Shown piece by piece: positions 18,807 to 64,000 of a stretch of 64,000 nt of DNA (position 1 is the first letter of the stretch; each line of letters starts with the position of its first letter). The notes beneath the pieces are model-generated. The model was not told the DNA's origin, searched no databases, and saw only the letters and a list, made by a program, of their open reading frames with translations. The stretch is from Azolla caroliniana (Eukaryota; Plantae; Polypodiophyta). Made by a program: the position numbers and the translations under genes. The DNA lies in assembly GCA_043228905.1 (NCBI GenBank), contig JBHGNT010000006.1, forward strand, positions 10,912,001-10,976,000, in the 5' to 3' direction.

Positions 18807-21800
18807 TGTCGTGAAGATCCGTCACTACGCGCGGATCGTGAGGCGGAACCGCCGGGGTTCTGGACCGGAAGGACTTGAAGTTGGCGCAAGCTTTAGCGAG
18901 AAAGTACTTAAGCTAGATTGAAAGAGAGAGAGAGAGAGAGAGCTTGAGATAGAAATCTTGATTTTAGATTTTAAGAAACAAGTTACACGATCAATTCGAT
19001 AACGAATTCTCTTCTTCTTAATTTCATAACAAAAAAAAGCCTAACCCTTCTTCTTTTTCATCCCTTCTTTTATAGATGCTCTCATGCATATGATGCATGT
19101 GAGGGTACAAGACATGCATAAAATGCATGTTTGCCATTTGGCGCTCATGTATTACATGCGGTGCATGATAACCATGTCACTCATTTTAGCTCTCATGTAT
19201 GAGAATTTACATGTAAAAGTATAATGATAGAAATATAAATTTAACTAAATCTCATGGCTTAGTGGTAAGCCAATAGACTCCTAACTTGGAGGTGCAAGGT
19301 TCAAATCCTTACTTGCCCTCGTATATGTATATATGTTTATATATTTATTTATCTAGTCGCCGGACGCCGGTTCGCTGGATGCCGTCGTCTGACTAGCGCC
19401 GGATATCGATGCGCCGCCGGATGCCGTCGGTTACCGGTTGCCGCCGGATGCCGGTTCCGCCGGATCACTGGGTACCGGTGTGCCACCATCGCTTTGCGGG
19501 CTGCCGCTAGATCACCGACTCCATCGCCGATCCGGTTTTGGTTGGCCGAAAACCTTTATGAGTAGCTAGGCCACCTCCACTCTTAATTCAATTTACCTTG
19601 AACTCTCTATGCTCCACACATAGACACAAAGATAATAGCTTTTGCTTTACCTTATATATGATGAGAGCCGTATTTGTCGTGCCTATGTGGGATATCTCAC
19701 AGTTTTCTCTTTTCTTTTCACAAACTTTATACCCTCATATCTTGACATTTAGTTGTCCGTTTCTCGTGTAATAAAGTGCATTCGAAAGCTCTTGAAGACC
19801 TCCATCATTTTGTACTTAGATATTAAACTTATTTAAAATGTTATCTTCACTATTATTATTTTATGTGATTCATACTCGATTTTGTACGTTTTATGTGATT
19901 TTCACACTATTGCCGAAAATCTTCACGACATCCACCCCCACCAAACCGCACGTCCTTTGATACGTGCCAAGAAGAGAGAAAGTGAGATTTCGGCTACGGT
20001 GATCAATCAGATTCCTCCATGTCTTCATTTAAATCCGTCCTATTATGTTCATCGTCGAGGTGATCGAGGTCAGGATCCTTGTCTTGTCTTTTCTTGAAAA
20101 TCTTTAGTCTTTTTCCCACAATGGGTACGACCAACCTTGATCCGTCTAGCTCCGCAAGGTGGTATGTGGCATTATCGTTGGCACTTGTCACCACATACGG
20201 CCCGAACTATCTTCTTGCGAACTTTCTTGTTGTATTTTGTTGATTGTCAAGGTTGTTGTCATAAACCAAAACCCAATCTCCTTCTTCAATATTCTTGGGA
20301 CGAAGTCGATGCGTGCTGTCGAACCGAACTTTGTTCTTTACTCGGGCTGCCTCCATCATCTTTTACGCTTTTTCTAGATCTTCAGGTCTTCTTTCAAGTT
20401 GCCTTATCCGCGCCGCTAATAACTCTTCTCGGCTCATCTCATTCTCCCACGGTATCGCTACCCATGAGGCGATCGTCCTTTCGATGGGCATTACCGGCTT
20501 TTGTCCATACATAAGCTCCGTCGGCATATACCCTGTCACCGAGCTGTTTGTCGTTCTGTCAGCCCACAAGGCATAGGGTAATGGTCGTGGCTAATTCCCG
20601 ACTCGACCGTTGCATACCCGTACGATGGCTTTGACGATAGGTCCATGCCCTCGCTCGATCTTCCCATTTGCTTCTGGATTGTAGGCAGTCATGAGGGAGA
20701 GCTTCACGCCTAGTCGTTCGAAGAGCTCCGTCGCTTCGTGCGCATCCAACTCCCCTCGGTCAGCCACTATCTTCCCCACACATCTGTATCGGCAAACAAC
20801 CTCTTCAAGTAGAAATTTGCAAACGGCTAAAGTCATCTTATTTGTCAAGGCTCGTCCTTCCACTTGATTTGTCAAGTCTTCCCTTGCCAACACTAAGTAC
20901 TTCATTTGTCCCACTCCCATTGGCATCGAGACTAGATCCACCATCCATTTGAAGTGTGTGGTGAGTGGGTATGTCAGCTGTAATTCATCACGATGATGTA
21001 TATTTGAATATATTTGGCAAGTTTCACATGTGGACACGAAATGGAGTACATCTTTGTACATGCTTGGCCACTAGTACTTCTCCTTCAACTTTTCGAACGT
21101 CGCCCATGTTCCTCTATGACCTGCCCAAGCACTCTCGTGGAATTCGGTCATCAGCGTCTCTTGTTCTTCTTTCTTCACCACCACTCGACGTGGTATTCCT
21201 GTCCTTCTTTTTGGATGTCGCCAAAGGAATCCTCCCTTCTTCCGGATTCGTAGGGCCTCCTCCTTTGTCAACGAAGCATCTGTCGTCAATGTTCTTAGGC
21301 ATCTACTGATGAGTAACCACTCTCATTCGTACTCATTCTCGTTGAAGGCGTAGAGGGTTTGCGTGTCCTGGTCTTCCGCCGATAATCGAGCCATCTTGAA
21401 GAAGTCGAGGGCGACATCTTCATCTTCCGAAACCATGTCGGTTCCATTTTCGAATCTTGCCCTCGATAGCATGTCAGCCATGGCGTTCTTCTTCCCTGCA
21501 ATGTGACGGATCTCTGGGTTTAAAGACTTGATGTAGGCGATCCACCTTAGCATAGCAAGATCTGGGGTTGCACATCCCGAGACCATTTCGAGAATTAGGA
21601 GACAATCTGTCTCTATTATCACTTCCGACCCGATCAGGTAATCTTTGTCCGTCTTCACTGCCGACACAATACCCCAAAGTTCCCGCTTGACTCGGGCATA
21701 TATTTGTTGTCGTTCGCTGAGAATCTTTGCTCCGAACCGGACGGCATATCGCGCATTATCTTCTCCTTCTTGATTGATGACCCACCCGATTCCGGTTGGG

Positions 21801-24800
21801 CTTGTATCGACGGTCACGTAAATCTGTTTCCCTTCGGCATAGTCGCCTTCCTTAGTGCCGGAGCTTCAAGAAGTAGTTTCTTCAATCTTCGCATCGCATT
21901 TGTGTGCTCGTCTCACCATTCGAACTTCATTCTTTTCTTTAGGAGTCCATATAAGGGTTCAACGACATGAGCATAGTGCGGAATCCAGATATCATAAAAT
22001 GCGCATGCTCCAAGGAACCTTCTAACCTCCGTTTGATTTCCGCATTCTTCTTTCATGTCTTGGATTGCGTTCACTTTGTATGGCGAAGGCTTCCGGCCGT
22101 ATGCCCCACATAAGTGACCTACCACCAAGATCTCCGGTTGCCTGAATGCGGATTTTTCTCCCGAAAATGTCAAATTCGCATCTTCGAGCCTTTGAAGCAC
22201 CTTCTCGCAATCTTTCATATGATCCGCAACGAACTTTCTACAACCTTCCTTATCTTTCAATTCATCTTTCTCCTCATCCGAACATCCTTTTATCGGAATA
22301 TCATCCAAGAATGGCATCGTGATGTCCGGGATGCAATCCTTCAAGACTTTATTCATGGCATTTACCATATGAGCCACCGAGTTCGTTGCGCCTTGGGGTA
22401 AGGTACACATCCGCACAAGCCCGATCGGAGTCCTCATGGTTGTAATGTCCCGACTGTCGATCGTCAATTGGAATTGGTCATATCCGAAGTAGAGATCGCC
22501 AATGGAGTAGATGGACCGGCCCCGCAAATGCTTCGGCAAATTCGTCCATGTTTGGACCGATTCTGGCATTTCAAATTGTCACATTGTTGACGGGTTGAAG
22601 ATCTTGGATGAATCGCAATGATCCATTCTTCTTCGGCACCGTGAACCACCTATTGGAATAAGGAGCATTCGACGGTTCTAGAAGTCCCATACTCACCTTC
22701 TCCTTTAAGAGCTCGATCAGCTTCGGAAGGTGTGCTCTCGGAACCGGCATCGGTTTCAAATTCCAAGGCACATGAGGCACCGTGAAGATCACCATCGGCT
22801 CTATAACCTTTGGGTCGGCACATCCGATTTCTCATGGGAAGAATGCGAAAGCCTTCCCATGTCTCTCAAGCATATCACGAAACATTCGCTCCTCTTTAGG
22901 GAGAAGGAAATCCTCCTTTCCAACTCATAGCTTCCCCTTTGTCTCTTCGGTGAAGACATGACCTATCGTCTTCGGATCTCTTAAGGTTGGATCATTAGCG
23001 ACTTCCTTCATCTTTTGCCAGCTATCTTCCGGTAGCGGAACCACAACTGGCTTGATCTTCTAATCCACCGTTTTATATTTCGTGTTGATGTCAGCTTCCT
23101 TCATCGAGATGCCATGACGGTATTCATCGATGATAGTGTACATGTTGACGGAGTTAACCGAAATCACGCGTTGGTCGTGAAGATAGCTCAAGTCCACGAC
23201 GTCCTCGATTTTGCCGATGGTGTCGTTAAATGAGGCTTCTTCCATAATATGAGTCACGAACTCTCCTTCTTCTATTATGTTTTCTTCTTTCAGCATCTTC
23301 TCGAATTCTTGTATCCGAAGCTTGTCCTTCTTGTCGGGTAGTACTAGTTTACGTGCGCCACTAGGTGTGACACATGTTGCTTCTCCTCGCAATCCAAACA
23401 CTCTTCTTACTTGTGGGGTCTTGTGATTGCTCGGACTATTTGTGCCCCATGCTTCAATAGTCCGCTCTAAAAATCTGAGGATTCGCCTCCAAGACTATCT
23501 CGATTCCTTTCATGATTGTCTCACACCGTTAGGAATTGGACTGATCTTTGGTTGTCAAGACTCTTTATTCATGCGAAGGCTGCTCCATTATCGAACACTT
23601 TGGTCTCCATCCGAGATGATGTGATATAAGGTTGCCCTAGGATGACAGGATGTGACACCGATTCTTGTACGAAGAAGTGTTGATCCATCTCCACATCGCC
23701 GATCGTGACTTTGACATTGGGACAAGCTCCGTAGACTTTGTTTCCGCGTGAATCTTCCATCCGTGGTTTGTATTGATTGGCCATCTTCCTTTTTTGTAGA
23801 AGTTGGTTGACATGAGGTTGATCTCCGAGCCATGGTCGATCAAAGCTACCACGGTCTCTTTCTTCTCCCCGATCTTCACCGGCGTCTCCGTTGTCGTTCG
23901 TGCCCAATGAGGTCGAGTATAGTGGCTGTCCATCATATCTTCATCGACTTCGTCTCTTGCCATCATTATGGCATTCGTTTTTGCTTTTTGCGGCTTCTCT
24001 TCTTCCTCGTCTGATTGTTGTCTTTTTCTCTTTACAAGGACCACGATCGTGTCATGGAACTCCTTCGTAATGCCAAGCAATTCCCTCAAGGACAAAGTTC
24101 TTCGAGAATCTTCTTTAGGTCCGTCGTCTGCTCTATGTTCGAGCTTAGCTTATAGGTAGGCATAGTCCTTGTCCTCCGAGTAGGGTCTTCAACACTAACC
24201 TTCACGGGCCGAACCGTTTCTTCAACTCGTATGCTCGGCTCCCCTTTTCAGCTTGATTCTCGTTCCTCCGTTTGTAAAGGTCGACTCGTCTTCGTATCGT
24301 CCTTCTTTTTCGCGTTCCTTGTTTCATGTCTTTTTGATGGGCCTTGCTCTTCTATTCTTTTTCTCTTTTCTTCGACAAACACCTCATGGTTGTCACACAT
24401 CACCTCCGCGAGTATGGTGTTGTCGTCCACCGGATCCAACCATCCGGTTATACTTTGTACACTTTCCCGACGCAACATAGTGCATCGCATCCACATGAGT
24501 CACATCAGCATCCTCCATAGATTTCTTCATTCCCCCTCTTCCGAAATTCACCCGTAGGGGTCTTCTAGTCTCCCTCGAGCAGATCATGTTGTCATCTATG
24601 TACACGATATTTTGTCGGATCGCCTCTGGAAGGCTCGCACAATCCCTTCTCATGTGGTCCATGCTATCGCACCACACACATCTAAAGGGTTCTTTTCCTT
24701 TGGGCCCTCGACGATTCATGTTGGCTAGCATGACCTTCTCGAACTTCTTCGTCAGTTCTTCGATGACATCATCACCAATATTCTTTTCTTCCACGTCACT

Positions 24801-26642
24801 TTGTTTCGGAGGCTCAACTACTTTCGGCGGTCTTGCTTTCTCCGTAACAGTCGATCCCACCAAGTCGGTGTCATCAACCCACTGACGACGCTTGTTGAGC
24901 CTATTGCATGCTCACTTTATCGCAACCCAGTCCGTCACAAGCCCGTTCGCTTGGGTATCATCTTTGAGAAGAGTCCCCAACTCCCGTCTATCCTTGATGT
25001 CCACAGCCTTCGGGAAGTACAAAGTCTTGTCCTCTTCAAGTAGCACTTGATCTGTGTTGGGGAGATGGCCAAACATCTGGTCAAATTCATCGTACATCCT
25101 CGAGGCGCTCATCTTCTTATTCTTCTTCTCTCTCCACTTCATCAGGGCATGTCGAGTCATCCTTGTTGAGTCTTCAGTCACGAACTCCGCTAATATCATT
25201 TTCTCGAACTCAGACCATGTTGTCTTACCTTCTTGAAGTTCGATGACGCGTCTTTGAATGTTGTTGGCGACAACTCTCTTGAAGCTTGCGATTTGACGTG
25301 CTTCGAACACGTCCCTCTGATTCATTTCCCTTTTATATGCATAAAGGAACTTCGTAACGTTCCTTCCATCGAATTGGCCCTCAAGCTCTACGACACGATC
25401 AACAGCCTTTTCCACGCTCGCATCGTTGTCCCGAGATCTCATCATTTGCTCGACGATTAGCATCATCCTTTCGAGCTCTCCCGCTTGGTTGCTTGAGGAC
25501 GCCATCTCCAAGTATTAATCTCGGCTTGATCCTTCCTCACGTCGGGTTCACCACTTAATTATGTCGTGAAGATCCGTCACTACGTGCAGATCGTGAGGTG
25601 GAACCGTCGGGGTTCTGGACCGGAAGGACTTGAAGTTGGCGCAAGCTTTAGCGAGAAAGTACTTAAGCTAGATTGAAAGAGAGAGAGAGAGCTTGAGATA
25701 GAACTCTTGATTTTAGATTTTAAGAAACAAGTTACACGATCAATTCGATAACGAATTCTCTTCTTCTTAATTTCATAACCAAAAAAAGCCTAACCCTTCT
25801 TCTTTTTCATCCCTTCTTTTATAGATGCTCTCATGCATATGATGCATGTGAGGGTACAAGACATGCATAAAATGCATGTTTGCCATTTAACGCTCATGTA
25901 TTACATGCGGTGCATGATAACCATGTCACTCATTTTAGCTCTCATGTATGAGAATTTACATGTAAAAGTACCGCTTAGGTTTAAGCTTTCCGGGAATAGT
26001 ATTCGACAATGATAGAAATATAATTTTAACTAAATGTCATGGCTTAGTGGTAAGCCAATAGACTCCTAACTTGGAGGTGCAAGGTTCAAATCCTTACTTG
26101 CCCTCGTATATGTATATATGTTTATATATTTATTTATCTAGTCGCCGGACGCCAGTTTATTGGATGCCGTCGCCGGTTACCGGTGGCCGGTGTGCCACCA
26201 TCGCTTTGCGGGCTGCGGCCAGATGACCGGCTCCTTGGCCGGTCCGGTTTTGGTTGGCCAAAAACCTTTACGAGTAGCTAGGCCACCTCCACTCTTAGTT
26301 CAACTTACCTTGAACTCTCTATGCTCCACACATAGACACAAAGATAATAGCTTTTGCTCTACCTTATATATGATGAGAGCCGTATTTGTCGTGCCTATGT
26401 GGGATATCTCACAGTTTTCTCTTTTGCTTTCACAAACTTTATACCCTCATATCTTGACATTTAGTTGTCCGTTTCTCGTGTAATAAAGTGCATTCGAAAG
26501 CTCTTGAAGACCTCCATCATTTTGTACTTAGATATTAAACTTATTTAAAATGTTATCTTCACTATTATTATTTTATGTGATTCATACTCGATTTTGTACG
26601 TTTTATGTGATTTTCACACTATTGCCGAAAATCTTCACGATA
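18807..26642 (-). mobile_element. Trp-lineage Gypsy copy A: full length but degenerate; LTRs 18807-19930 and 25562-26642
   Basis: 4-bp TSD gcgg, PBS 25537-25553, PPT 19931-19943. gag, PR (IDHGSEIN), RT (FLDD), RH and INT are present with stops and frameshifts. Confidence 0.95.
19255..19316 (+). ncRNA. tRNA-like Pol III A/B-box cassette inside the LTR (also at 26040-26101, 55352-55409, 62200-62261)
   Basis: A box tggcttagtgg and B box ggttcaaatcc 43 nt apart. D-like stem ggctt/aagcc, anticodon-like stem ctcc/ggag, T-like stem aagg/cctt. No acceptor stem. Confidence 0.7.
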
Positions 26643-27574: not shown

Positions 27575-29549
27575 TGTATTCTAGTTCCGTGGGGGTCTTG
27601 AACTGAGGGATTTAAGAGATCAAAGGAGAGAGAGATACGCGAGTGTATCGTCAGCTAGGCCTGCTCGTGGCCGACAATGTTGCTGGCCAAATAAGACTTG
27701 AACGCGTATAGTCTACGAACCTGGTACGCGCTCACCAAACAAGGTAGAGGGTACTCACGAGATCACAAGAGAGAGAAAACAGAAGTTTGAATTCAGTAAC
27801 TAGCAAGGTTACAATGTATACACGATTACAATTGGCAAGCCGACAACAGACCCAACACAGAGAACCCACGAACACACACGCAACATAGAGAACGCACGAT
27901 GGAGCCCTGCTGGAAGCAAGTGGGCTTACATGCAACAACAACAACCGACGCAGAAACAGAGTGGAGAGCAACGATGGAGGAGGAGGGAGCTCGATACCTA
28001 GTTCGACAACACCTCGTCCTCGCCAAAAACGTGATCCCTTCTTCTTTATCTCCCCTCCCTTTTATAGGTCGTCGAGGAGGCCGTTACATCAAAACACATC
28101 AACTTTATTCTCTGTCCCTTCGAACAATGATATGCGTTGATTTTTTAGCTAATAAATATGTCATACCGAGTATATTTACATAAACCATCCTATTCCTAGT
28201 TATGTATAATGTATCAATTCGCGCACACTCATGCAAGGGTGGGTTCACGCCTTTAATTCCTTGATTCCTCTTAGAGCCGGTTTTCTTCACAACATCCACC
28301 CCCACCAAACCGCGCATCCACCGGTATGCGCAAGACACTAACAATCACTGGAGGAGACCGGCCCGTAATCATCTGTCACTTCCCGGATCCTCGTCTGCTC
28401 CGAACCGGTCGTCGTCGTCGGTCACGCTTCCCGGGTTCGGCTCGCCCTCCTGCCACTTCTTGAACGTCTTGATCCGCTTCCCGGTTACCGACACTGTTAA
28501 TTGCGTCCCGTCGAGCTCCGTAAGATGATATGTCCTGTTGTCCTTCGCGCTCGTTACGACCCGAACCACCTCCTCGTGAATTTGCGCGTACACCAGCACC
28601 CAATCGCCTTCCTCGATCTTTTTTGGCCGCATCTGGTGCATCCGGTCAAACCGGCCTTTGTTCCTCTCCCTCACTGCATGTAGCTTTGCCTTTGCATGCT
28701 CCACGTCCTTCGGTCTTTGCTCGAGCTGTCAAATCCGCGCCGCCGACAGCTCCTCCCGGCTCATCTCGTCTCTCCAATCTATCACCGCCCATGAGGAAAT
28801 CGTCCAGTCCATCGGCATGATAGGCTTCTGCCCGTGTACATCAGCTCCGCTGGCATGAACCTTGTTACCGAACTGTGCGTAGTCCAGTCCGCCCACAATG
28901 CGTAAGGAAGGAGCCGCAGCCAATTCCTGACCTGTCCGTCGCACGCGCGTACCAGCGCCTTCACGATCGGCCCGTGCCCGCGTTCTACCTTCCCGTTGGC
29001 CTCCGGATTGTATGCCGAGGTGAGAGAGAGCTTCAATCCTAGCCGGTCGAAGAACTCCTCAACTTCTTGCGCGTTCAACTCTCCTTGGTCCACCACGATC
29101 TTCCCTACGCACCCGTATCGGCATACTACCTCTTTGATCAAAAACCGGCACACCGCCGCAGTCGTCTTTTTTGCAGTGCGTGGCCCTCCACCTGGTTCGT
29201 CAAATCCTGTTAGGAAACAGGTCCCTCCGGATGGGAAGTGAGAAGAACAGAAACCGGATGACGAGTACCCGGCAACGGAAGACCCGGTGAGAACCGGATG
29301 ACGAGTACCCGGCAATGGAAGACCCGGTGAGAACCAGATGACGAGTACCGGGCAAGAGCCGGATGGTGAAGGCCCGGTGAGAAGTACTCACCGGATGAAG
29401 GGACATATTCGTAAATATGTTTTCTGAGAGTCCATCGGGGCTATATTTGTAAATAGCCGAAAAGTCATATTAGTATAAATATGACTTAGGGCAAACTTAT
29501 TGTGGTGGTTGTCATTCTTGTTGGTGCAAGATTAGAGCGCATAATTGTG

Positions 29550-47771: not shown

Positions 47772-48758
47772 CTATCTTCTTGGCGTATGGGGACAACTGA
47801 TTGCGATAAGCCTTGGTCCACCGCAATAAAGACATAATCGATTTGCACGTCGTCGTTGCTTTTCTTCTTCCGATAACGGGCCGCATCGATGCATGGTATC
47901 GATCTCCATCAGTGTCGAAGTATTTGCTTGAGGTATGTCTCGTGCAAACAGTTTAGCCGCGACTGAGGCGTAAGTGGGCTCCGGCCTAGAGCGTGGTATC
48001 TGTAATTGACGTTCCGAACGTCGTTCGAAAAGACGGTTGTCACATCGGACCGCTCGACTGATTGCTTCCATAAGAGACTTTGGTTCTTCGAGGAGAGTTA
48101 GAAGTACATCTTTGACATCATTTCGTAGGCCATAGCGAAATTGCTCCATTAGTGCCTGATCATCCCAGGGGATATCTGAAGCGAGTAGGCGGAAATCCAC
48201 CGCGTAGGCAAAGGCTGGACGATCGCCTTGACGCAATCGTCGGATCTCGTTGATCACCGTCCTGATGTTGTCGGTGTCTCCAAAGCAGGCTTTAAACTCA
48301 TTAATAAAATCCTCAAAGTTATTAAGCAAGGGCGATTGTTTTTCTAGAAGCGGAGCGAACCATGCCAAGGCTGAGCCGCTAAGCAACGTGCCTATTAAGC
48401 CGACTCGGGATGCATAAGTGGGGTATCGGGAAGGATGCATTTGGATGACTAATCGTACCTGATTAAGGAATCCCCTAAATTGCGATTGCGTTCCATCAAA
48501 TTTCACAGGAAGTCCAATCTTCGGCTCTTTATGAAATCCTTGGGGACTTGATCCTTGTTCTTGCAATGCCACTTCAAGTTGTTGCACCTGTAACACTAAT
48601 TCCCCATGATGTTGTTGCGTTTGTTGTTTTTCTAGAGCGATTTGTTGCAGATCCCCTATCAGCCGTTGCTTTTCTTGTTCCAAGGCAACAAATTTTTCTT
48701 TTAGGCATTGTAGCTCGGAGAAAACGGATTGATATTCTTGGGCGCTAATAGTAGCCAT
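47772..48758 (-). CDS. Ty3/Gypsy Gag, 328-aa open frame
   Basis: P.KFDG..SQFRGFL, LSGSALAW, LRQG motifs and a degenerate LCLYCG zinc knuckle. Confidence 0.85.
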   Translation of the reverse strand: MATISAQEYQSVFSELQCLKEKFVALEQEKQRLIGDLQQIALEKQQTQQHHGELVLQVQQLEVALQEQGSSPQGFHKEPKIGLPVKFDGTQSQFRGFLNQVRLVIQMHPSRYPTYASRVGLIGTLLSGSALAWFAPLLEKQSPLLNNFEDFINEFKACFGDTDNIRTVINEIRRLRQGDRPAFAYAVDFRLLASDIPWDDQALMEQFRYGLRNDVKDVLLTLLEEPKSLMEAISRAVRCDNRLFERRSERQLQIPRSRPEPTYASVAAKLFARDIPQANTSTLMEIDTMHRCGPLSEEEKQRRRANRLCLYCGGPRLIAISCPHTPRR

Positions 48759-49223
48759 AGTATAGGGAAAAGGGTAGGCTTGAGACCAAATTGGTCCAAA
48801 TTGTCAGGAATAGTACTAAAGTAGAGATGGAATTAGTACTAAAGAAGAGGATGGGACTGCGTAAGACTCCCAAGAGAGAGAGAAAGAGAGAAGAGAAAAG
48901 AGAGATAGTGAGGATGAGAGAGAGAGATGATGATAACAGCCAATATATTATGTGAAGGATAAGTACAAAATGGCTAAGAGGCTTAAGACTGACGTTGAAC
49001 CAATTTGGTTCAACATAATGCCTAGTGCCTTCTTTTATAGTGTTCTCAGGAGTAATCCTGAAGCTTCTAGAATGTTCCAGAGAAATCTAGAATATACATT
49101 AATTTCCTATAATAAAACTTAAATGAAAATAATATCTTACGTATGATAATAGATGGTATAATGGTCAAGAGCTCGACCCATATAACATAAGGTTATGGGT
49201 TTGAGTTTTGCCATATCATGACA

Positions 49224-53850: not shown

Positions 53851-55961
53851 TGTTACAATGCATCATTAAACATATTTGAAACGAATAGTGTGTGGAAGCA
53901 ATAGGAAAACCGAACAACAGAAGACGCAGGTTTAATGGAAAGCTTAGGTTTGCATTGTACGCACAGGAGAGACAGAGAGAGAGTAAACACACAAAACTTA
54001 ATTCCAAAATAATACTCAATCTGTACATAGGATGTGCTCAATGAGAACTTTTATACAAGCCCTGACAATGGGCTGACATAAGTACTGACAGTACTTGACT
54101 GCTCATAAATGAGCCTCGACACTTACTCCCAAAACTATTCCTTGCGAGGAATATCTTTCTAACGGCCTTTCGGTCTACGCACCGATACGGCCTTCCTACG
54201 CACCGGTCTTCGTACCGGCTTTACGCATCGAATTACGCACAAATGTTGAGCTTGTTTCTCAACACTCCCCCTCAAGCTCAACTTGAGGTTCCGCCTGCTC
54301 TACCGGATCTACGCTCCGGCTTCTCCTGGCTACACGCCTCGCTCACGCTCCTCGGCCTGTTCGACTCCGCGCGCTTCGACCCTTCTGGTCGGCTTGTCTC
54401 CTCCCATGGCCCTTCATAGCTCCCTTGTTGTCGCGGTGTTGGTGCTTCTCCTGCTGCCTTCTTTTCCGCTTGGCCCTCGGTTGATTTAGTGTATCTGAAT
54501 CAAACATCCGAACCGACTTGGCTACCTCCGATCAGTTTTCGCTCTTGTCCGAGTTGGCTGTCTCCAACTCGTCTTCGGTCTTCTCGCCTTTGACGGCGTC
54601 ATCTCCGCCATGCCTGGTTGGCTCCGGCATTTTCTTTCAGCTACTCCCCTTACGTCCGCTTTCAGACTCTTCCGCGGATCTGCTCTCGGCTTCTTCAGTC
54701 GAGCCACGGTCTTTTCCGCTCCTTTCCTGCTCCCTTCGTGGTCATCGGGGACGTTTCTCCCCCTCAAGTTCGGCACGTCGAGGTGACGCAACCCAAGCGC
54801 ACCCGAGAATTGCCGTAACTTGTCCAGACCAAGAGGCTTGGTGAAGATGTCGGCGGTCTGCCGATTCGTCAGAACATACTGAAGTTCGACTTCACCAGAA
54901 AGGACACGCTCACGGACAAAATGGTAATGCACCTCAATATGCTTGGTCCGTTGTCGTGAAGATCCGTCACTACGCGCGGATCATGAGGCGGAACCGCCGG
55001 GGTTCTGGACCAGAAGGATTTAGAGTCGATACAAGCTTTGGCGAGAAAGTACTTAACATAGATTGGGAAAGAGAGAAGTTGAGATTACACGATCAATTTG
55101 ATAACGAATTTCTTCCTCTTAATTTTCATAAAAAAAACCGTGTTTTTCTCCTCCCCCTTCCCTCTTTTATAGATGCTCTCATGCATATGATGCATGTGAG
55201 GGTACAAGACATGCATAAATTGCATGTTTGCCATTTGGCGCTTAAGTATTACATGTGGTGCATGCTAACCATGTCACTCATTTTAGCTCTCATGGATGAG
55301 AATTTACATGTAAAAGTACAATGATAGAAATATAATTTCAACTAAATACCATGGCTTAATGGTAAGCCATTTGACTCCTAACTTGGAGGTGCAAGGTTCG
55401 AATCCATACCGGTGCCGCCGCCGGATACCGACGCCGACGTTGGATACCGGTGCCGCATGCCGCCGCCGGATTGTGGTTGGATGCCGTCGGATCACCGGCT
55501 CCATCGTCGGACCGGTTTTGGTTGGCCAAAACCCTTTTCGAGTAGCTAGCCACCTCCACTCTAAGTTCAACTTACCTTGAACTCTCTATGCTCCACACAT
55601 AGACACAAAGATAATATCTTTTGCTCCACCTTATATATGATGAGAGCCGTATTTGTCGTGCCTATGTGGGATATCTCACAATTTTCTCTTTTCTTTTCAC
55701 AAACTTTATACCCTCATATCTTGACATTTAGTTGTCTATTTCTCGTGTAATAAAGTGCATTCGAAACCTCCATCATTTTGTACTTAGATATTAAAAATGT
55801 TATCTTCACAATTATTGTATTACGTGATTCATACTCGATTTTGTACGTTTTATGGGATTTTCACACTATTGCCGAAAATCTTCACGACATCCACCCCCAC
55901 CAAACCGCACGTCCTCCGGTACGTGCCAAGAAGAGAAGAAGTGAGATTTCGGCTACGATGA

Positions 55962-58900
55962 TCAATTAGATTCCTCCATGTCTTCATTTTCATCCGGCCT
56001 ATTATGTTCATCGTCGAGGTAATCGAGGTCAGGATCCTTCTCTTGTCTTTTCTTGAAAAGCTTTACTCTTTTCCTCGCAATGGGTACGGCCAACCTTGAT
56101 CCGTCTAGTTCCGCAAGGTGGTATGTGGCATTATCGTTGGCACTTGTCACCACATATGGCCCGAACCATCTTCTTGCGAACTTCCTTGTTGTACTATGTT
56201 GATTGTCAAGGGTGCTGTCGTAAACCAAAACCCAATCCCCTTCTTCAATCTTCTTGGGACGAAGTCGATGCGTGTTGTCGAACCAAACTTTGTTCTTTAC
56301 TCGGGCTGCCTTCATCATCTTTCGCACTTTTTCTAAATCTTCAGGTCTTCTTTCAAGTTGCCTTATCTGCGCCGCTAATAACTCTTCTCTGCTCATCTCG
56401 TTCTCCCACGGTATCGCTACCCATGAGGCGATCGTCCTTTCGATGGGCATAATCGGCTTTTGTCCATACATAAGCTCCGTCGGCATATACCCTGTCACCG
56501 AGCTATGTGTCGTTCTATCGGCCCACAAGGCATAGGGTAATAGTCGTGGCCAATTCCCGACTCGACCGTTGCATGCCCGTACGATGGCTTTAACGATAGG
56601 TCCATGCCCTCGCTCGATCTTCCCATTTGCTTCCGGATTGTAGGCAGTCGTGAGGGAGAGCTTCACGCCTAGTCTTTCGAAGAGCTCCGTCGCTTCGTGC
56701 GCATCCAACTCCCCTCGGTCGGCCACTATCTTCCCTACACATCCATATCGGCAAACAACATCTTCAAGTAAAAATTTACAAACGGCTGAAGTCGTCTTAT
56801 TTGTCAAGGCTCGTCCTTCCACTTGATTTGTCAAGTCTTCCCTTGCGAGCGCTAAGTACTTCATTTGTCCCACTCCCATTGGCATCGAGACCAGATCCAC
56901 CATCCATTTGAAGTGAATGGTGAGTGGGTATGTCAACTTTAACTCATCACGATGACGTATATTTGAATATACTTGGCAACTTTCGCATGTGGACACGAAA
57001 TGGAGTACATCTTTGTACATGCTTGGCCACCAGTACTTCTCCTTCAACTTTTCGAACGTCGCCCATTTTCCTCTATGACCTGCCCAAGCACTCTCGTGGA
57101 ATTCGGTCATCAGCATCTCTTGCTCTTCTTTCCTTACCACCACTCGACGTGGTATTCCTGTCCTTCTTTTTGGATGTCGCCAAAGGAATCCTCCCTTCAA
57201 GAAGTATCGGTAAGCTTTCTTTCGGATTCGTAGGGCCTCCTCCTTTGTCAACGAATCATCTGTCGTCAATGTTCTTAGGAATCTACCGATGAGTAACCAT
57301 TCTCCTTCGTACTCGTTCTCGTTGAAGGCGTGGAGGGTTTGCGTGTCCTGGTCTTCCGCCGACAATCGAGCCATCTTGAAGAAGTCGAGGGCGACATCTT
57401 CATCTTCCGAAACCATGTTACTTCTATTTGAAAATCTTGCCCTCGACAGCATGTCAGCCATGGCGTTCTTCTTCCCTGCGATGTGACGGATCTCTGGGTT
57501 AAAAGAATGGATGTAGGCGATCCACCTTAGCATAGCAAGATCTGGGGTCGCACATCCCGAGACCATTCCGAGAATTGGGAGACAATCTGTCTCTATTATC
57601 ACTTCTGACCCGATCAGGTAATCTTTGTCCGTCTTCACTGCCGACACAATACCCCAAAGTTCCCGCTTGACTTGGGCATATCTTTGTTGCCGTTCGCTGA
57701 GAACCTTTGCTCCGAACCGGATGGCATATCGCGCATTATCTTCACCTTCTTGATTGATGACCCACCCGATTCCGGTTGGGCTCGTATCTACAGTCACGTA
57801 AATTGGTTTCCCTTCGGCATAGTCGGCCTTCCTTAGTGCCGGAGCTTCAAGAAGCAGTTTCTTTAATCTTCGCATCGCCTCTGTGTTCTCGTCTCGCCAT
57901 TCGAACTTTATTCTTTTCTTTAGTAGTCCATATAACGGTTCGGCAACATGAGCGTAGTGAGGAATCCATATATGATAAAACGTGCACGCTCCAAGGAACC
58001 TTTGAACCTCCGTTTGGTTTTCGCATTCTTCTTTCATGTCTTGGATTGCGTTCACTTTGGATGGTAAGGGCTTCCGGCCGTATGCTCCACACAAGTGACC
58101 TACCACCAAGATCTCCGGTTGCCCGAATGCGGATTTTTCTCCCGAAAATGTCAAATTCGCATCTTCGAGCCTTTGAAGCACCTTCTCGCAATCTTTCATA
58201 TGATCCGCAACGAACTTTCTACAACCTTCCTTATCTTTCGATTCATCTTTCTCCTCATCTGAACATCCTTTTATCGGAATATCATCCAAGAATGGCATCG
58301 TGATGTCCGGAATGCAATCCTTCAAGACTTTATTCATGGCATTCACCATATGAGCCACCGAGTTCGTTGCCCCTTGGGGTAAGGTACACATCCGCACAAG
58401 CCCGATCGGAGTCCTCATGGTTGTAATGTCCCGACTATCGATCGCCAACTGGAATTGGTCATATCCGGAGTAGAGATCGCCAATGGAGTAGATGGACCGG
58501 CCCGCAAACGCTTCGGCAAATTCGTCCACGCTCGGACCGATTCCGGCATTTCGAATTGTCACCTTGTTGACGGGTTGAAGATCTTGAATGAATCGCAATG
58601 ATCCATTCTTCTTCGGCACCGTGAACCACCTATTGGAATAAGGAGCATTCGACGGTTCTAGAATTCCCATACTCAGCTTCTCCTTTAAGAGCTCGATCAG
58701 CTTCGGAAGGTGTGCTCTCGGAACCGGTATCGGTTTCAAATTCCAAGGCACATGAGGCACCATGAAGATCACCATTGGCTCTATAACCTTTGGGTCGGCG
58801 CATCCGATTTCTTGTGGGAAGAATGCGAAAGCCTTCCCATGTCTCTCAAGCATATCGCGAAACATTCGCTCCTCTTCAGGGAGAAGGAAATCCTCCTTTC

Positions 58901-59456
58901 CAACTCGTAGCTTCCCCTTCGTCTCTTTGATGAAGTCATGACCTATCTTCTTTGGATCTCTTAAGCTTGGATCGTTAGCGACTTCCTTCATCTTTTGCCA
59001 GCTATCTTCCGGTAGCGGAACCGCAACTAGCTTGATCTTCTTATCCACCGTTTTATATTTCGTGTTGATGTCAGCTTCCTTCATCGAGATGCCACGACGG
59101 TATTCATCGATGATAGCGTACATGTTGACGGAGTTAACCGAAATCACGCGTTGGTTGTGAAGATAGCTCAAGTCCACGACGTCCTCGATTTCGCCGATGG
59201 TGTCGTTAAATGAGGCTTCTTCCATAATATGAGTCACGAACTCCCCTTCTTCTATTATGTTTTCTTCTTTCAGCATCTTCTCGAATTCTTGTATCCGGTG
59301 CTTGTGCTTCTTGTCGGGTAGTACTAGTTTACATGCGCCACTAGGTGTGACACATGTTGCTTCTCCTTGCAATCCACGCACTCTTCTTTCTTGTGGGGTC
59401 TTGTGATTGCTCGGACTATTTGTGCCCCATGCTTCAATAGTCCGCTCTAAAAATCC
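55962..59456 (-). CDS. Pol (RT-RNase H-integrase), uninterrupted frame entered by a predicted -1 frameshift
   Basis: The 1139-aa ORF extends upstream without a stop to GGATTTT at 59456. Motifs: FLDD, TVDTS, HHCC (H-H-C-C), D,D,E core, GPY module. No chromodomain. Confidence 0.93.
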   Translation of the reverse strand, partial: GFLERTIEAWGTNSPSNHKTPQERRVRGLQGEATCVTPSGACKLVLPDKKHKHRIQEFEKMLKEENIIEEGEFVTHIMEEASFNDTIGEIEDVVDLSYLHNQRVISVNSVNMYAIIDEYRRGISMKEADINTKYKTVDKKIKLVAVPLPEDSWQKMKEVANDPSLRDPKKIGHDFIKETKGKLRVGKEDFLLPEEERMFRDMLERHGKAFAFFPQEIGCADPKVIEPMVIFMVPHVPWNLKPIPVPRAHLPKLIELLKEKLSMGILEPSNAPYSNRWFTVPKKNGSLRFIQDLQPVNKVTIRNAGIGPSVDEFAEAFAGRSIYSIGDLYSGYDQFQLAIDSRDITTMRTPIGLVRMCTLPQGATNSVAHMVNAMNKVLKDCIPDITMPFLDDIPIKGCSDEEKDESKDKEGCRKFVADHMKDCEKVLQRLEDANLTFSGEKSAFGQPEILVVGHLCGAYGRKPLPSKVNAIQDMKEECENQTEVQRFLGACTFYHIWIPHYAHVAEPLYGLLKKRIKFEWRDENTEAMRRLKKLLLEAPALRKADYAEGKPIYVTVDTSPTGIGWVINQEGEDNARYAIRFGAKVLSERQQRYAQVKRELWGIVSAVKTDKDYLIGSEVIIETDCLPILGMVSGCATPDLAMLRWIAYIHSFNPEIRHIAGKKNAMADMLSRARFSNRSNMVSEDEDVALDFFKMARLSAEDQDTQTLHAFNENEYEGEWLLIGRFLRTLTTDDSLTKEEALRIRKKAYRYFLKGGFLWRHPKRRTGIPRRVVVRKEEQEMLMTEFHESAWAGHRGKWATFEKLKEKYWWPSMYKDVLHFVSTCESCQVYSNIRHRDELKLTYPLTIHFKWMVDLVSMPMGVGQMKYLALAREDLTNQVEGRALTNKTTSAVCKFLLEDVVCRYGCVGKIVADRGELDAHEATELFERLGVKLSLTTAYNPEANGKIERGHGPIVKAIVRACNGRVGNWPRLLPYALWADRTTHSSVTGYMPTELMYGQKPIMPIERTIASWVAIPWENEMSREELLAAQIRQLERRPEDLEKVRKMMKAARVKNKVWFDNTHRLRPKKIEEGDWVLVYDSTLDNQHSTTRKFARRWFGPYVVTSANDNATYHLAELDGSRLAVPIARKRVKLFKKRQEKDPDLDYLDDEHNRPDENEDMEESN
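59392..59456 (-). promoter_or_regulatory. Predicted -1 programmed ribosomal frameshift signal (G GAT TTT plus H-type pseudoknot)
   Basis: Slippery heptamer, 5-nt spacer, stem cggactatt/aatagtccg; loop tgggg is complementary to downstream cccca. Conserved in copies A, D and E-. Confidence 0.8.
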
Positions 59457-61739
59457 GAGGATTCGCCTCCGAGACTATCTCGATTCCTTTCATGATTGGC
59501 TCGCACTGTTAGGAATTGGACCGATCTTTGGTTGTCAAGACTCTTTATTCGTGCGAAGGCTGCTCCATTATCGAACACTTTGGTCTCCATCCGAGATGAT
59601 GTGATATAAGGTTACCCTAGGATGACAGGATGCGACGCCGATTCTTGTATGAAGAAGTGTTGATCCATCTCCACATCCCCGATCGTGACTTTGACATTGG
59701 GACAAGCTCCGTACAAGTCCTCCGTAGACTTTGTTGCCGCGCGAATCTTCCATCCATGGTTTGTATTGATTGGCCATCTTCCCTTTTTGTAGAAGTCGTT
59801 TGACATGAGGTTGATCTCCGAGCCGTGGTCGATCAAGGCTACGACGGTCTCTTTCTTCTCCCCGATCTTTACCGGCGTCTCCGTTGTCGCTCGTGCCCAA
59901 TGAGGTCGAGTGTAGTGGCTGTCCACCATATCTTCATCGATTTCGTCTCTTGCCATCGTTATGGCATTCGTTTTTGCTTTCTGCGGCTTCTCTTCTTCCT
60001 CGTCCGATTGTTGTCTCTTTCTCTTTACAAGGTCCACGATCATGTCATGGAACTCCTTCTTCGTAATGCCAAGCAATTCCCTCAAGGACAAAGTTACGTG
60101 GCTATCAAGAACTCGTTCTTCGAGAATCTTCTTTAGGTTCGTCGTCTGCTCTACGTCCGACCTTAGCTTATAGGTAGGTATGGTCCTTGTCCTCCGAGCG
60201 GGGTCTTCGACACCAACCTTCACGGGCTGAACCGTTTCTTCAACTCGTATGCTCGGCTCCCCTTTTCGGCTTGATTCTCGTTCCTCCGTTTGTAAAGGTC
60301 GACTCGTCTCCGCATCGTCCTTCTTTTTCGCGTTCCTTGTTTCATGTCTTTTTGATGGGCCTTGCTCTTCTATTCTCTTTCTCTTTTCTTCGACGAACAC
60401 CTCGTGGTTGTCGCACATCACCTCTGCGAGTATGGTGTTGTCGTCCACCGGATCCGACCACCCGGTTATGCTTTGCACGTTTCGGTCCGCAAGCTCTACC
60501 TCGTTCGATGTGACTTTTCCCTTCTTCTCATATTCGAGAACGGAAGTCCAAAACTTTGCTCCCGCTCTAGCAGCTTCAGTCTTGTCTTTCCCGACTCTTA
60601 TTCCGGCTGACGCAACATAGTGCATCGCATCCACATGAGTCGCATCGGCATCCTCCATAGATCTCTTCATTCCTCCTCTTCCGAAATTCACCGGCCGACG
60701 CAGCATAGTGCATCGCATCCACATGAGTCGCATCGGCATCCTCCATAGATCTCTTCATTCCTCCTCTTCCGAAATTCACCCATAGGGGTCTTCTAGTCTC
60801 GCTTGAGCAGATCATGTTGTCCTCTATGTATACGATATTTTGTCGAATCGCCTCTCGAAGGCTCGTACAATCCCTTCTCATGTGGTCCATGCTATCGCAC
60901 CACACGCATCTAAAGGGTTCTTTTCCTTTAGGGCCCCGACGATTCATGTCGGCTAGAGTGACCTTCTCGAACTTCTTCGCTAGCTCTTCAATGATGTCAT
61001 CATCAATCTTCTTTTCTTCCACGTTACTTTGTCTTGGCGGCTCATCTACTTTCAGCGGTCTTGCTTTCTCCGTGGTAGTCGGTCCCGTCAAGTCGGTGTC
61101 ATCAACCCATTGGCGACGCTTGTCGAACCTATTGCATGCCCGCTTCACCGCGATCCAGTCCGCTACGAGCCCATTTGCTTGGGTATCATCTTCGAGAAGA
61201 GTCCCCAACTCCCGTCTATCCTTTATGTCCACGGCCTTCAAGAAGTACAAAGTCTTGTCCTCTTCAAGCAATACTTGGTCCGTATTGGGGAGACGACTAA
61301 ACATCTGGTCGAATTCGTCGTACACCCTCGAGACGCTCATCTTCTTATTCTTCTTCTCTATCCACTTCATCAGGGCATGTCGAGTCATCCTCGTTGAGTC
61401 TTCAGTCACGAACTCCACTAGTATCGTTTTCTCGAACTCGGACCATGTTGTCTTTCCTTCTTGAAGCTCGATGATGCGTCTTTGGATGTTGTTGGCGACA
61501 ACTCTCTTGAAGCTTGCGATTTGACGTGCCTCGGACACGTCCCTTTGATTCATCTCCCTCTTATATGCATCAAGGAACTTCGTAACGTTCCTTCCATCGA
61601 ATTGGCCCTCGAGCTCTACGACACGATCGACAACCTTCTCCACGCTCGCGTCGTTGTCCCGAGATCTCATCATTTGCTCGACGATTAGCATCATCCTTTC
61701 GAGCTCTCCTGCTTGGTTGCTTGAGGACGCCATCTCCAA
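59447..61739 (-). pseudogene. Gag-protease ORF1 of copy F, broken by an 88-bp duplication (60603-60778) and a CAA-to-TAA stop (59612-59614)
   Basis: ORFs 60576-61739 and 59612-60739 join if the duplication is removed. Copy A has CAA at the stop position. The frame ends ...GESSDF*. Confidence 0.88.
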
Positions 61740-61774
61740 GTATTAATCTCGACTTGATCCTTCCTACCGCCTCT

Positions 61775-61792
61775 TTCACGTCGGGTTCACCA
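61775..61792 (-). promoter_or_regulatory. Primer-binding site complementary to the tRNA-Trp 3' end
   Basis: tggtgaacccgacgtgaa is complementary to plant tRNA-Trp ...UUCACGUCGGGUUCA-CCA (tRNA sequence recalled, not searched). Confidence 0.85.
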
Positions 61793-64000
61793 CTTAATTA
61801 TGTCGTGAAGATCCGTCACTACGCGCGGATCGTGAGGCGGAACCGCCGGGGTTCTGGACCAGAAGGATTTAGAGTCGATACAAGCTTTGGCGAGAAAGTA
61901 CTTAACATAGATTGGGAAAGAGAGAAGTTGAGATTACACGATCAATTTGATAACGAATTTCTTCCTCTTAATTTTCATAAAAAAACCGTGTTTTTCTCCT
62001 CCCCCTTCCCTCTTTTATAGATGCTCTCATGCATATGATGCATGTGAGGGTACAAGACATGCATAAATTGCATGTTTGCCATTTGGCGCTTAAGTATTAC
62101 ATGTGGTGCATGCTAACCATGTCACTCATTTTAGCTCTCATGGATGAGAATTTACATGTAAAAGTACAATGATAGAAATATAATTTCAACTAAATATCAT
62201 GGCTTAATGGTAAGCCATTTGACTCCTAACTTGGAGGTGCAAGGTTCGAATCCATACTTGCCCTCCTTGTATATGTACATATTTTTATATATTTATTTTA
62301 TCTAGTCGCCGGTTCGCCGGATGCCGTCGCCGGATGCCGACGCCGACGCCGGATACCGGTGCCGCATGCCGCCGCCGGATTGCGGTTGGATGTCGTCGGA
62401 TCACCGGCTCCATCGCCGGACCGGTTTTGGTTGGCCAAAACCCTTTTCGAGTAGCTAGCCACCTCCACTCTAAGTTCAACTTACCTTGAACTCTCTATGC
62501 TCCACACATAGACACAAAGATAATATCTTTTGCTCCACCTTATATATGATGAGAGCCGTATTTGTCGTGCCTATGTGGGATATCTCACAATTTTCTCTTT
62601 TCTTTTCACAAACTTTATACCCTCATATCTTGACATTTAGTTGTCTATTTCTCGTGTAATAAAGTGCATTCGAAACCTCCATCATTTTGTACTTAGATAT
62701 TAAAAATGTTATCTTCACAATTATTGTATTACGTGATTCATACTCGATTTTGTACGTTTTATGGGATTTTCACACTATTGCCGAAAATCTTCACGACACC
62801 GTGCGTGGAAGACGGGGTTCTTCGCGAGGTGGATGCTGCTAAGGTTGTCGTAGTAGATCGTCGTCGGATCGGACACCTCCACCTGCAAATCCTTAAGTAG
62901 CCGCTTCAACCATATGGCTTCGCATGTCGCAATGGCCGCTCCTCAGTACTCAGCTTCAGTGCTCGACAGTGCAACTGTCGGCTGCTTCTTGCTACTCCAC
63001 GCTATTGCGGCACTCCCAAGAGAGAACGTGTATCCGGACGTGGATCGGCGATCTGCGACATTGCCGGCCCAGTCGGCATCGGTGTAGCCGAACAACTGCG
63101 GGGCCATATTGGTCCGATATAGCAGTCCCCGGTCATTAGTGCTGCTTATGTACCGCAGTACGTGTTGCGCACACTGAAGGTGCTCCTCGGTAGGTCGCGC
63201 CATAAATTGACTGATCACCCCGATCGGGTAACTAAGATCGGGTCGGGTGATTGTCAAGTAGATAAGGCTTCCGACAATTTGTCGGAACCTTGTCGGATCG
63301 CAAACCTTGCCAGAATTGGGGCGAAGCTTCACAGTTCTATCCAGAGGAGTCGAGACGGACTTACAGTCTGCCATCCCGAATTTGAAGAGCATATTCAGGG
63401 TGTAATGACGTTGGCTGATCAGTATGCCTTTAGGGGTGTGGATCACTTCGATCCCGAGGAAGTAATGAAGGTCCCCTAGATCCTTCACGTCGAATGATGC
63501 TGCAAGCTAGAGCTTCACGTGGTTGAGTTCACCTAGGTCAGTGCCGATGATGACCAAGTCATCAACATAGAGTAAAATACTGACCGGCCCAAGTCGACCT
63601 TTCCGAATGAACAACGAGGAGTCCGATTTTGACGTCGCAAAGCCCATCCGACGCAGCCGATGCGTGATCTTTGTATTCCAGGCACGCGGGGCTTGCTTCA
63701 GTTCGTAAAGGGACTTCTTCAATCGGCACACTGCCGACGTGTTCGTTCCGGAGTGAAATCCGAGGGGTCCTCAAGCTCACCTTGCAGGAACGCATTCTTT
63801 ACATCCATTTGATGTAAGTGCCACCCCTTGGCCGCGGCTACCATGAGAAAAACACGGACAGTCGTCATCTTCGCGACCGGCGCAAATGTCTCATCGTAGT
63901 CGATGCCGTGTTTCTGCGCATAGCCTTTTGCCACTAACCGGGCCTTGTATCGGTTGACCGAGCCGTCGGTGTTGTACTTGACCTTGTGCACCCACCTACA

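What the first reader, a model, noticed from the sequence alone, without database searches (positions are those of the whole stretch)
19255..62261. Antisense tRNA-like Pol III cassettes embedded in LTRs of three different LTR families
Seen: A box and B box at tRNA spacing (43-44 nt) with D-, anticodon- and T-like stems in the LTRs of copies A and F, in solo LTR 37529-38192, and in the unrelated chromovirus 2. All lie on the + strand, opposite to the elements. The anticodon-like stem shows a compensatory change (ctcc/ggag versus ctct/agag). Known analogue: Cassandra TRIMs carry 5S rRNA Pol III promoters in their LTRs, and TFIIIC-bound B boxes can act as chromatin barriers. Inference: a recurrently captured tRNA/SINE head may act as an insulator against silencing, a Pol III promoter or a tRNA decoy.
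Basis: partly seen in the sequence, partly recalled or inferred. Interest (0 to 1): 0.8.

Follow-up and report, generated by a model that had tools for sequence, protein, structure and literature searches.

The report
Backward tRNA promoters in retrotransposon LTRs
Several families of protein-coding plant jumping genes carry, just upstream of their own promoter and pointing away from it, a conserved tRNA-type promoter that no longer folds as a tRNA, which likely serves as a docking site for the tRNA transcription factor and would shield the element's promoter from silencing.

Summary
The cassette is real: 5 exact A-box/B-box matches at tRNA spacing (0 in 100 shuffles) and 2 relaxed ones, all in U3 and opposite to the elements. 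A/F and the solo LTR are Phygy-like Ty3/gypsy elements sharing one homologous cassette; the self-priming chromovirus has a different one, so there are at least two captures, not three. In related contigs 5 of 17 Phygy-like LTR families carry it, always antisense, 152-189 nt from the TATA box (one copy 224), often as the only interior block that aligns between families; no free SINE copy was seen. Against function: most families lack it, boxes are barely more conserved than the spacer, a key B-box base is mutated in about a quarter of contig depth, and there are no expression data. Best reading: a retained TFIIIC/Pol III site that protects the LTR promoter (0.4). It resembles Helenus/Cassandra but is antisense and in coding elements. 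The scan earlier noted antisense tRNA-like units inside gypsy elements of other genomes, not this LTR cassette.

The parts
18807..26640 (-). Element A, Phygy-like Ty3/gypsy, 7834 bp, 4-bp TSD GCGG; LTRs 18807-19930 (3') and 25562-26640 (5'), 97% identical
19255..19308 (+). A-box/B-box cassette in U3 of A 3' LTR, spacing 43, exact consensus match
26040..26093 (+). A-box/B-box cassette in U3 of A 5' LTR
25817..25824 (-). TATA-like box of A 5' LTR (inferred Pol II promoter); 224 nt from the A box because of a 36-nt insertion
37529..38192 (-). Solo LTR S, Phygy-like termini, TSD ACGC; aligns to A/F LTRs only at the cassette
38001..38055 (+). Cassette in S, spacing 44, 81% identical to the A cassette
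43525..49223 (-). Chromovirus (gag, protease, RNase H, integrase, chromodomain), Tcn1-like; LTRs 43525-43946 and 48802-49223, 89% identical over aligned bases; flanking 5-mers do not match
43878..43931 (+). Chromovirus cassette, exact A+B match, 69 nt from the outer LTR end; folds as one long hairpin (z -6.8); spacer not related to the Phygy cassette
49154..49208 (+). Decayed chromovirus cassette (B-box C56 changed to T)
48780..48799 (-). Self-priming site: matches 48995-49013 in the LTR (18 of 20), no tRNA PBS
54952..62798 (-). Element F, Phygy-like, 7847 bp, TSD CCGT, LTRs 99% identical; gag, DUF4100, 1170-aa RT-RH-IN frame
55352..55405 (+). Cassette in F 3' LTR; about 60 nt downstream, including the T-run, are deleted in this copy
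62200..62253 (+). Cassette in F 5' LTR: A box 62200-62210, B box 62243-62253, 8-bp hairpin over the A box, 7-of-8-bp stem enclosing the B box (62236-62243 with 62257-62264), T5 run 28 nt downstream
62013..62020 (-). TATA-like box of F 5' LTR (inferred), 185 nt from the A box
61775..61792 (-). PBS of F, complementary to the last 18 nt of plant tRNA-Trp
27580..28294 (-). Control: Phygy-like LTR of family C, no cassette
41677..42299 (-). Control: Phygy-like LTR of family D, no cassette

Best explanation
These LTRs carry in U3 a tRNA-type A-box/B-box module that points away from the element's TATA box and no longer folds as a tRNA, and it likely works as a TFIIIC (with or without Pol III) docking site that would keep the neighbouring Pol II promoter open and buffered from host silencing. 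Shown: the module, its antisense U3 position 152-189 nt from the TATA box in Phygy-like elements (one copy 224; 100 in the chromovirus), its persistence between families whose flanks do not align, and a second, unrelated module in a chromovirus. Inferred: origin from a tRNA gene or SINE head captured at least twice; spread between families by LTR module exchange; selection in replicating lineages; TFIIIC binding. In the 5' LTR it lies between flanking host DNA and the promoter, where a barrier would act; facing outward would avoid Pol III running into the Pol II start. It is accessory, since most families lack it.
For: 5 of 5 exact matches in the window and 5 of 5 in 144,801 nt of 75 related plant loci lie in U3, antisense. 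Between family types the cassette is often the only interior BLAST hit (F vs S 82% over 58 nt; A vs L002 87% over 56 nt; A vs L008 75%). Six homologous types: 0.76-0.79 mean identity in the block against 0.38 and 0.32 in ungapped flanks. Three TATA-to-cassette spacer types do not align (z 0-1.7) yet keep 152-189 nt. 14-17 of 17 box-consensus positions are kept in all 12 aligned Phygy-like cassettes. Carriers are not one clade on a gag tree (at least 3 changes; AU p 0.0004). L067 has two tandem, dissimilar cassettes, both 17 of 17. The upstream 30 nt are 67-87% AT, as at plant tRNA genes (PMC13578239 section 20). Pol III/TFIIIC barriers exist in yeasts. The chromovirus self-primes, so its cassette cannot serve a tRNA primer.
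Against: No binding, chromatin or expression data. 12 of 17 Phygy-like LTR families with mapped ends lack it. Box positions are only slightly more conserved than the spacer (p 0.38 ungapped, 0.06 gapped), which a pure TFIIIC site would not predict. Within A/F the cassette has 5 variable places in 54 nt against 77 in 1040 nt for the LTR stretch, and C56 of the B box is T in 23%, 24% and 47% of contig depth in three runs. The distant cassettes were found with box-based patterns, so their box conservation is partly built in. With only 2-3 independent sources, shared orientation is not significant; one decayed sense copy lies in R/U5 of L073 (E 0.0014). Repeat contigs from metagenome assemblies may be chimeric. 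[quoted passage not shown]
Confidence: 0.4

Rival explanations
1. Neutral or nearly neutral passenger: a tRNA/SINE remnant landed in one U3 and was carried into other families by template switching, for which it serves as a shared homology block; the chromovirus case is a separate accident.
For: Whole block, spacer included, is 57-83% identical among seven Phygy types, near the 80% whole-LTR identity of A versus F; no within-family excess of conservation and frequent C56T; most families lack it; L073 joins an A-type proximal U3 to an L002-type distal U3 at the cassette; Kojima notes many Repbase LTRs contain tRNA-like pieces.
Against: Both flanks diverge beyond alignment while the block stays; position and orientation are fixed; exact boxes at spacing 43 in dissimilar cassettes (L067a, L067b, chromovirus); no copy outside an LTR in 144,801 nt of loci plus the window and no excess contig depth over the cassette; C56 is a CpG site, and two other CpG sites in the LTR change in 14% and 68% of depth, so its decay may post-date insertion.
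Confidence: 0.25
2. The module is a real Pol III gene whose short structured antisense RNA is the product, acting as a copy-number regulator or small-RNA precursor, as foamy-virus LTRs make Pol III miRNAs.
For: A three-hairpin fold is 86% paired across 10 cassettes, with 4 pairs changed on both sides (further pair types 5/500, covariation score 8/500); F cassette z -3.5, chromovirus hairpin z -6.8; spacer conservation fits selection on an RNA; precedent in PMC3993851.
Against: First T4 run lies 10-210 nt downstream and is absent in one of 12, so no common transcript length; Phygy stems are 4-8 bp, too short for a pre-miRNA; G-U versus A-C cells (16 vs 8, p 0.15) do not pick a strand; pairs-changed measure not significant (121/500) and the structure was drawn from these sequences.
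Confidence: 0.2
3. The antisense copy in the 3' end of the genomic RNA base-pairs with the primer tRNA (second part of a bipartite PBS, or an aid to minus-strand transfer), as in Ty3 and as reported for HIV-1 U3-R.
For: Antisense orientation in U3 is what such pairing needs; Ty3 pairs the T and D arms of its primer with U3 (PMC5371799); the F cassette matches tRNA-Trp, its primer, at 34 of 54 positions in exact register (hand count).
Against: Not primer-specific: 36 of 54 to tRNA-Cys and 32 of 54 to tRNA-Thr (hand counts); longest perfect run to Trp is 7 nt; the cassette departs from Trp towards the B-box consensus; the chromovirus has no tRNA primer; most Trp-primed families lack it.
Confidence: 0.1
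4. The block is kept for a strand-neutral reason unrelated to Pol III, such as a hairpin in the genomic RNA 3' end or a Pol II factor site, and the boxes are only a trace of its origin.
For: Hairpins fold about equally well on both strands (F: z -3.5 and -3.2).
Against: The Phygy and chromovirus cassettes share boxes and spacing but neither spacer sequence nor fold.
Confidence: 0.05

Closest known systems
Helenus / TRIMp3 (Kojima 2024, PMC10886601; text parts 1-4 of 6, passages, supplement passages)
   Same: tRNA-derived A and B boxes inside LTRs, boxes kept while the tRNA fold is lost; one plant family (Selaginella).
   Different: Helenus is non-coding, 311-1263 bp, and its Selaginella LTR has the tRNA-like part in sense, proposed to transcribe the element. 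Here it is antisense, beside a TATA box, in 5.7-7.8 kb gag-pol elements.
Cassandra TRIMs (as described in PMC10886601)
   Same: Pol III internal promoter in the LTRs of plant LTR retroelements.
   Different: 5S rRNA-derived, non-autonomous, drives the element's own RNA; no 5S match here.
Foamy-virus LTR Pol III miRNA cassettes (PMC3993851, passages)
   Same: A/B-box Pol III units in the LTR of a coding retroelement, in a region also read by Pol II.
   Different: Those make proven miRNAs from long hairpins with adjacent terminators; here the module is tRNA-spaced, stems are short except in the chromovirus, and no RNA is shown.
Ty3 bipartite PBS (PMC5371799, PMC4974528, passages) and HIV-1 U3-R tRNA-Lys3-like sequence (title seen in reference lists only)
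   Same: U3 sequence complementary, in the genomic RNA, to tRNA D and T arms.
   Different: No specificity for the primer tRNA here, and present in a self-priming element.
tDNA/TFIIIC heterochromatin barriers of yeasts (review passage in PMC13578239)
   Same: Intact A/B boxes placed between host DNA and an active promoter.
   Different: Host chromosomal features, not carried by a transposon; stated not to be described in plants; untested here.
Phygy and Tcn1 lineages (Neumann et al. 2019, PMC6317226; passages and one supplement row)
   Same: A/F/S: 4-bp NCGN TSD, tRNA-Trp PBS, size in range. Chromovirus: chromodomain and self-priming.
   Different: Phygy was defined from Physcomitrella; the nearest named host-gene hits here are ferns. 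No LTR tRNA-like module appears in the passages read.

Membership tests
Helenus/TRIMp3 | tRNA-derived sequence with A and B boxes in the LTR | tested here: met
   32-36 of 54 matches to three plant tRNAs by hand
Helenus/TRIMp3 | Short non-coding element (TRIM) | tested here: not met
   7.8 kb and 5.7 kb with gag/pol domains; pol-less carriers L002 and L067 have 1.9-2.3 kb interiors with a >600-aa frame
Helenus/TRIMp3 | Promoter oriented to transcribe the element | tested here: not met
   all intact cassettes antisense; Helenus-1_SMo sense
Cassandra | 5S rRNA-derived LTR segment | tested here: not met
   no 5S hit in Rfam scans
tRNA gene | Cloverleaf with acceptor and anticodon stems | tested here: not met
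SINE2 insertion | Free interspersed copies with tail and TSD | tested here: inconclusive
   none outside LTRs in 144,801 nt of loci plus the window; no whole genome held
Phygy | 4-bp NCGN TSD | tested here: met
   GCGG, CCGT, ACGC
Phygy | tRNA-Trp PBS; length 7656-9968 bp; no chromodomain | tested here: met
Phygy | RT-RH-INT phylogeny within the Phygy clade | not tested
   no reference Phygy proteins held
Tcn1 chromovirus | Chromodomain and self-priming instead of a tRNA PBS | tested here: met
   PF00385; 18-of-20 match to the inferred R start
Tcn1 chromovirus | Phylogenetic placement with Tf1/Sushi | not tested
   no tree of this element was built
Bipartite PBS (Ty3 type) | U3 segments specifically complementary to the primer tRNA | tested here: not met
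   Trp 34, Cys 36, Thr 32 of 54; hand counts on 3 tRNAs chosen by eye
Foamy-virus-type LTR Pol III small-RNA gene | Pol III transcript processed to small RNA | not testable with these tools
   only contigs, no raw RNA reads
TFIIIC barrier | TFIIIC occupancy and block of silencing spread | not testable with these tools
   needs ChIP and reporter assays

The most novel reading that the evidence does not exclude
Coding LTR retrotransposons of two distant Ty3/gypsy lineages in a fern-like plant have each captured a tRNA promoter and use it, facing outward about one nucleosome repeat from the TATA box, as a portable TFIIIC insulator that protects their promoter from silencing: a transposon-borne anti-silencing cis-element and the first tDNA-type barrier in plants.
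Probability: 0.25. Interest if true: 0.8.

Novelty: new variant of a known kind. Interest (0 to 1): 0.52.

Why it matters
Pol III promoters in LTRs are known from short non-coding elements, where they transcribe the element; Kojima argues that coding partners must rely on Pol II and are unlikely to share long LTR stretches with them. An outward-facing module kept in coding elements needs another job. If it is a TFIIIC barrier, it gives a cis route by which very abundant retrotransposons resist silencing and a direct test of whether tRNA-type barriers work in plants, with natural controls: sister families without the cassette and copies with a mutated B box. It would also mean many extra TFIIIC sites in such a genome.

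Tried and rejected
No whole genome is held, so no genome-wide SINE search. Viral contigs: cassette pattern, PBS pattern and pol query found nothing; the one prokaryote-genome hit was a bacterial tRNA. Attempts to obtain a eukaryotic tRNA-Trp as a locus gave 32 chance matches, so no duplex-energy comparison was run; only hand counts on 3 of about 90 displayed tRNAs, picked by eye. No RNA holder listed; a few contigs of guessed-RNA runs X18 and X19 cover the cassette but say nothing on strand or start. The B-box-like 9-mer at 43751 is the chromovirus self-priming repeat, not a second cassette. Strand asymmetry of G-U pairs not significant. CAA before the inferred start in only 5 of 12. ARAGORN at a lowered threshold gives 40 noise hits and touches only the solo-LTR cassette. 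One search used a structure with one pair on a gap column; one search is the corrected count. The bacterial promoter scan is uninformative. Dropped before the 5-of-17 family count: 46 of 121 loci without the plant-type PBS context, loci too short to hold an LTR, 19 LTRs without a mapped outer end (2 of them, L022 and L054, are carriers), partial L067 (carrier), L038, L045, a partial D LTR and the two chromovirus LTRs. The metagenome scan stopped at 25 of 64 parts.
Full report
Setting. The window is a nest of plant LTR retrotransposons beside a clathrin light chain gene whose nearest named hits are ferns (36-38%); no whole genome is held. Elements A (18807-26640) and F (54952-62798) read on the minus strand, carry gag, DUF4100 and RT-RH-IN, have 4-bp NCGN target duplications, as does solo LTR S, and a PBS matching the last 18 nt of plant tRNA-Trp. 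These fit the Phygy lineage: NCGN TSD, 81% Trp PBS, 7656-9968 bp (PMC6317226 supplement row); no tree with reference Phygy proteins was built. The element at 43525-49223 has a chromodomain and, instead of a tRNA PBS, an 18-of-20 match to its own inferred R start, the self-priming pattern of Tcn1.

Observation. Seven cassettes lie at 19255, 26040, 38001, 43878, 49154, 55352 and 62200, on the plus strand, A box to B box 43-44 nt. A generic consensus matches 5 exactly, against 0 in 100 shuffles and 0 in 200 block shuffles. They are not tRNAs: no ARAGORN gene, no Rfam tRNA hit, acceptor stem 0-2 of 7 pairs in 10 of 12 cassettes, anticodon stem 1-3 of 5. A and S cassettes are 81% identical; the chromovirus spacer is at background (0.20-0.37) with the nine Phygy-like ones and scores only 7.9 bits on a Phygy-cassette profile. 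So the window shows at least two sources. Phygy-like families C and D in the window lack the module.

Related elements. A metagenome scan anchored on the PBS and LTR end, blind to the cassette, gave 121 loci from 25 of 64 parts; 75 had the plant-type PBS context (144,801 nt). Cassettes occur in L002, L008, L022, L032, L054, L073, L079 and twice in L067, all antisense and in U3. Among 27 Phygy-like LTRs with mapped ends (window included), 10 carry it, in 5 of 17 families clustered at 60% mutual BLAST cover; ends were set by motif and some may be off. All 5 exact matches in the loci lie in LTRs, and the profile search found no copy outside one except a weak hit (E 0.24) in a chromovirus-like LTR remnant in L045. 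On a gag tree of 32 rows the 5 carriers need at least 3 changes against 12 non-carriers and one clade is rejected (AU p 0.0004; L008 is a long branch), so there were losses or exchange of LTR modules. Carriers include coding elements (A, F, L008) and pol-less ones (L002, L067).

Conservation, for. Between families the cassette is often the only interior alignment. Across six homologous types identity is 0.76-0.79 in the block and 0.38 and 0.32 in the ungapped flanks. Three spacer types between TATA box and A box do not align with each other (z 0-1.7) but measure 152-189 nt (224 in one copy with an insertion; 100 in the chromovirus). All 12 aligned Phygy-like cassettes keep 14-17 of 17 box-consensus positions. 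Contigs of two runs labelled as other organisms (X6, X20) hold variants of the cassette, and loose ends show further LTR backgrounds. Summed contig depth over the cassette (405,000-426,000 in X2) is like that of adjacent bins (300,000-468,000), a rough sign that no large free family shares the head.

Conservation, against. Boxes exceed the spacer only marginally (0.79 vs 0.76, p 0.38; 0.87 vs 0.73, p 0.06). Within A/F, 5 of 54 cassette positions vary in at least 5% of depth against 77 places in 1040 nt overall. C56 is T in 23%, 24% and 47% of depth (X2, X6, X20); it sits in a CpG, and two other LTR CpGs change in 14% and 68%, so this may be decay after insertion, but it is not evidence of constraint. 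Distant cassettes were picked by box-based searches. Shared orientation rests on 2-3 independent sources, and a decayed sense copy lies downstream of the TATA box in L073 (E 0.0014). Collapsed repeat contigs can be chimeric.

Structure. A non-tRNA fold of three short hairpins (over the A box, the shifted stem, and a 7-8-bp stem enclosing the B box) is 86% paired in 10 cassettes, with modest covariation (further pair types 5/500, score 8/500, pairs changed on both sides 121/500); it was drawn from these sequences. The chromovirus cassette folds as one long hairpin (z -6.8). The first T4 run lies 10-210 nt downstream, absent in one. G-U against A-C cells do not identify the folding strand.

Mechanism. 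A sense role like Helenus is excluded by orientation. Pairing with the primer tRNA fits the orientation and has precedent in Ty3 (PMC5371799 and PMC4974528 passages) and HIV-1 (title only), but by hand the F cassette matches tRNA-Trp at 34, tRNA-Cys at 36 and tRNA-Thr at 32 of 54 positions (PMC13128298 supplement; 3 tRNAs chosen by eye), and the chromovirus uses no tRNA primer. What the two sources share is boxes, spacing, an AT-rich upstream flank and an outward-facing place near the TATA box, which points to TFIIIC/Pol III recruitment. I put a promoter-protecting TFIIIC site at 0.4, a passenger at 0.25, a functional short antisense RNA at 0.2, primer pairing at 0.1 and other at 0.05. Binding, transcription and any effect on silencing are untested.

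Comparison and novelty. Helenus and Cassandra are short, non-coding and transcribed or proposed to be transcribed from their Pol III promoter (PMC10886601, text parts 1-4 of 6); the one plant Helenus LTR is sense. Kojima notes that 'not a few' Repbase LTRs hold tRNA-like pieces and followed only elements under 1000 bp, so like cases may be deposited but undescribed. Foamy-virus LTRs encode Pol III miRNAs (PMC3993851 passages). [quoted passage not shown] Six searches aimed at this arrangement (listings and abstract starts) returned no report of antisense tRNA-type promoters in U3 of coding plant LTR elements; the library lacks most subscription papers, and bioRxiv supplements were closed. PMC5846777 (passages) and PMC11658184 (supplement search, no hit) served only the hunt for tRNA-Trp. 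The C56 importance for TFIIIC binding and tRNA position numbers are recalled knowledge. Verdict: a real, recurrent, probably selected LTR module; a new variant of Pol III-promoter-bearing LTRs; interest 0.52.

Noticed in passing
L035 1150-1224; L060 flank about 300-400 nt beyond the LTR: A cassette-less Phygy-like element sits 203 nt upstream of an ARAGORN-called tRNA-Arg(CCG) that points away from it, the same geometry as the cassette; a relative (L060) has tRNA-like remnants nearby. 1 of 12 flanks has a called tRNA: a weak hint of tRNA-proximal insertion and of a capture route.
   Followed up: partly
L002 868-2718 (+); L067 827-2737 (-): Pol-less Phygy-like elements with PBS, PPT and one intact 616-aa or 636-aa low-complexity frame showing no hit to the F gag or pol queries.
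   Followed up: no
L073 1330-2424 (+): A 364-aa acidic frame just before the PPT, in the element's sense; a possible extra 3' ORF, which the Phygy row of Neumann's table lacks.
   Followed up: no
window 62020-62170 and 37820-37940: The TATA-to-cassette spacers are rich in CATG-centred palindromes in all three unalignable types; they resemble RY motifs of B3 factors (recalled).
   Followed up: no
window 25554-25561 and 61793-61800: The PBS of A/F is set 8 nt from the LTR, against 2-6 nt in most sister families.
   Followed up: no
L030, L080: LTRs that begin like A/F (about 70 nt, 84-91%) but have a different U3 without the cassette: natural controls and signs of LTR module exchange.
   Followed up: partly
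window 29225-29848 and 36583-37216: Two 70%-identical LTR-like inserts of another family inside Phygy coding regions, without TG/CA ends at the aligned borders and without the cassette.
   Followed up: no
L037-like LTRs L006, L074: Arrays of telomere-like TTAGGG-containing repeats within U3/R of cassette-less families.
   Followed up: no
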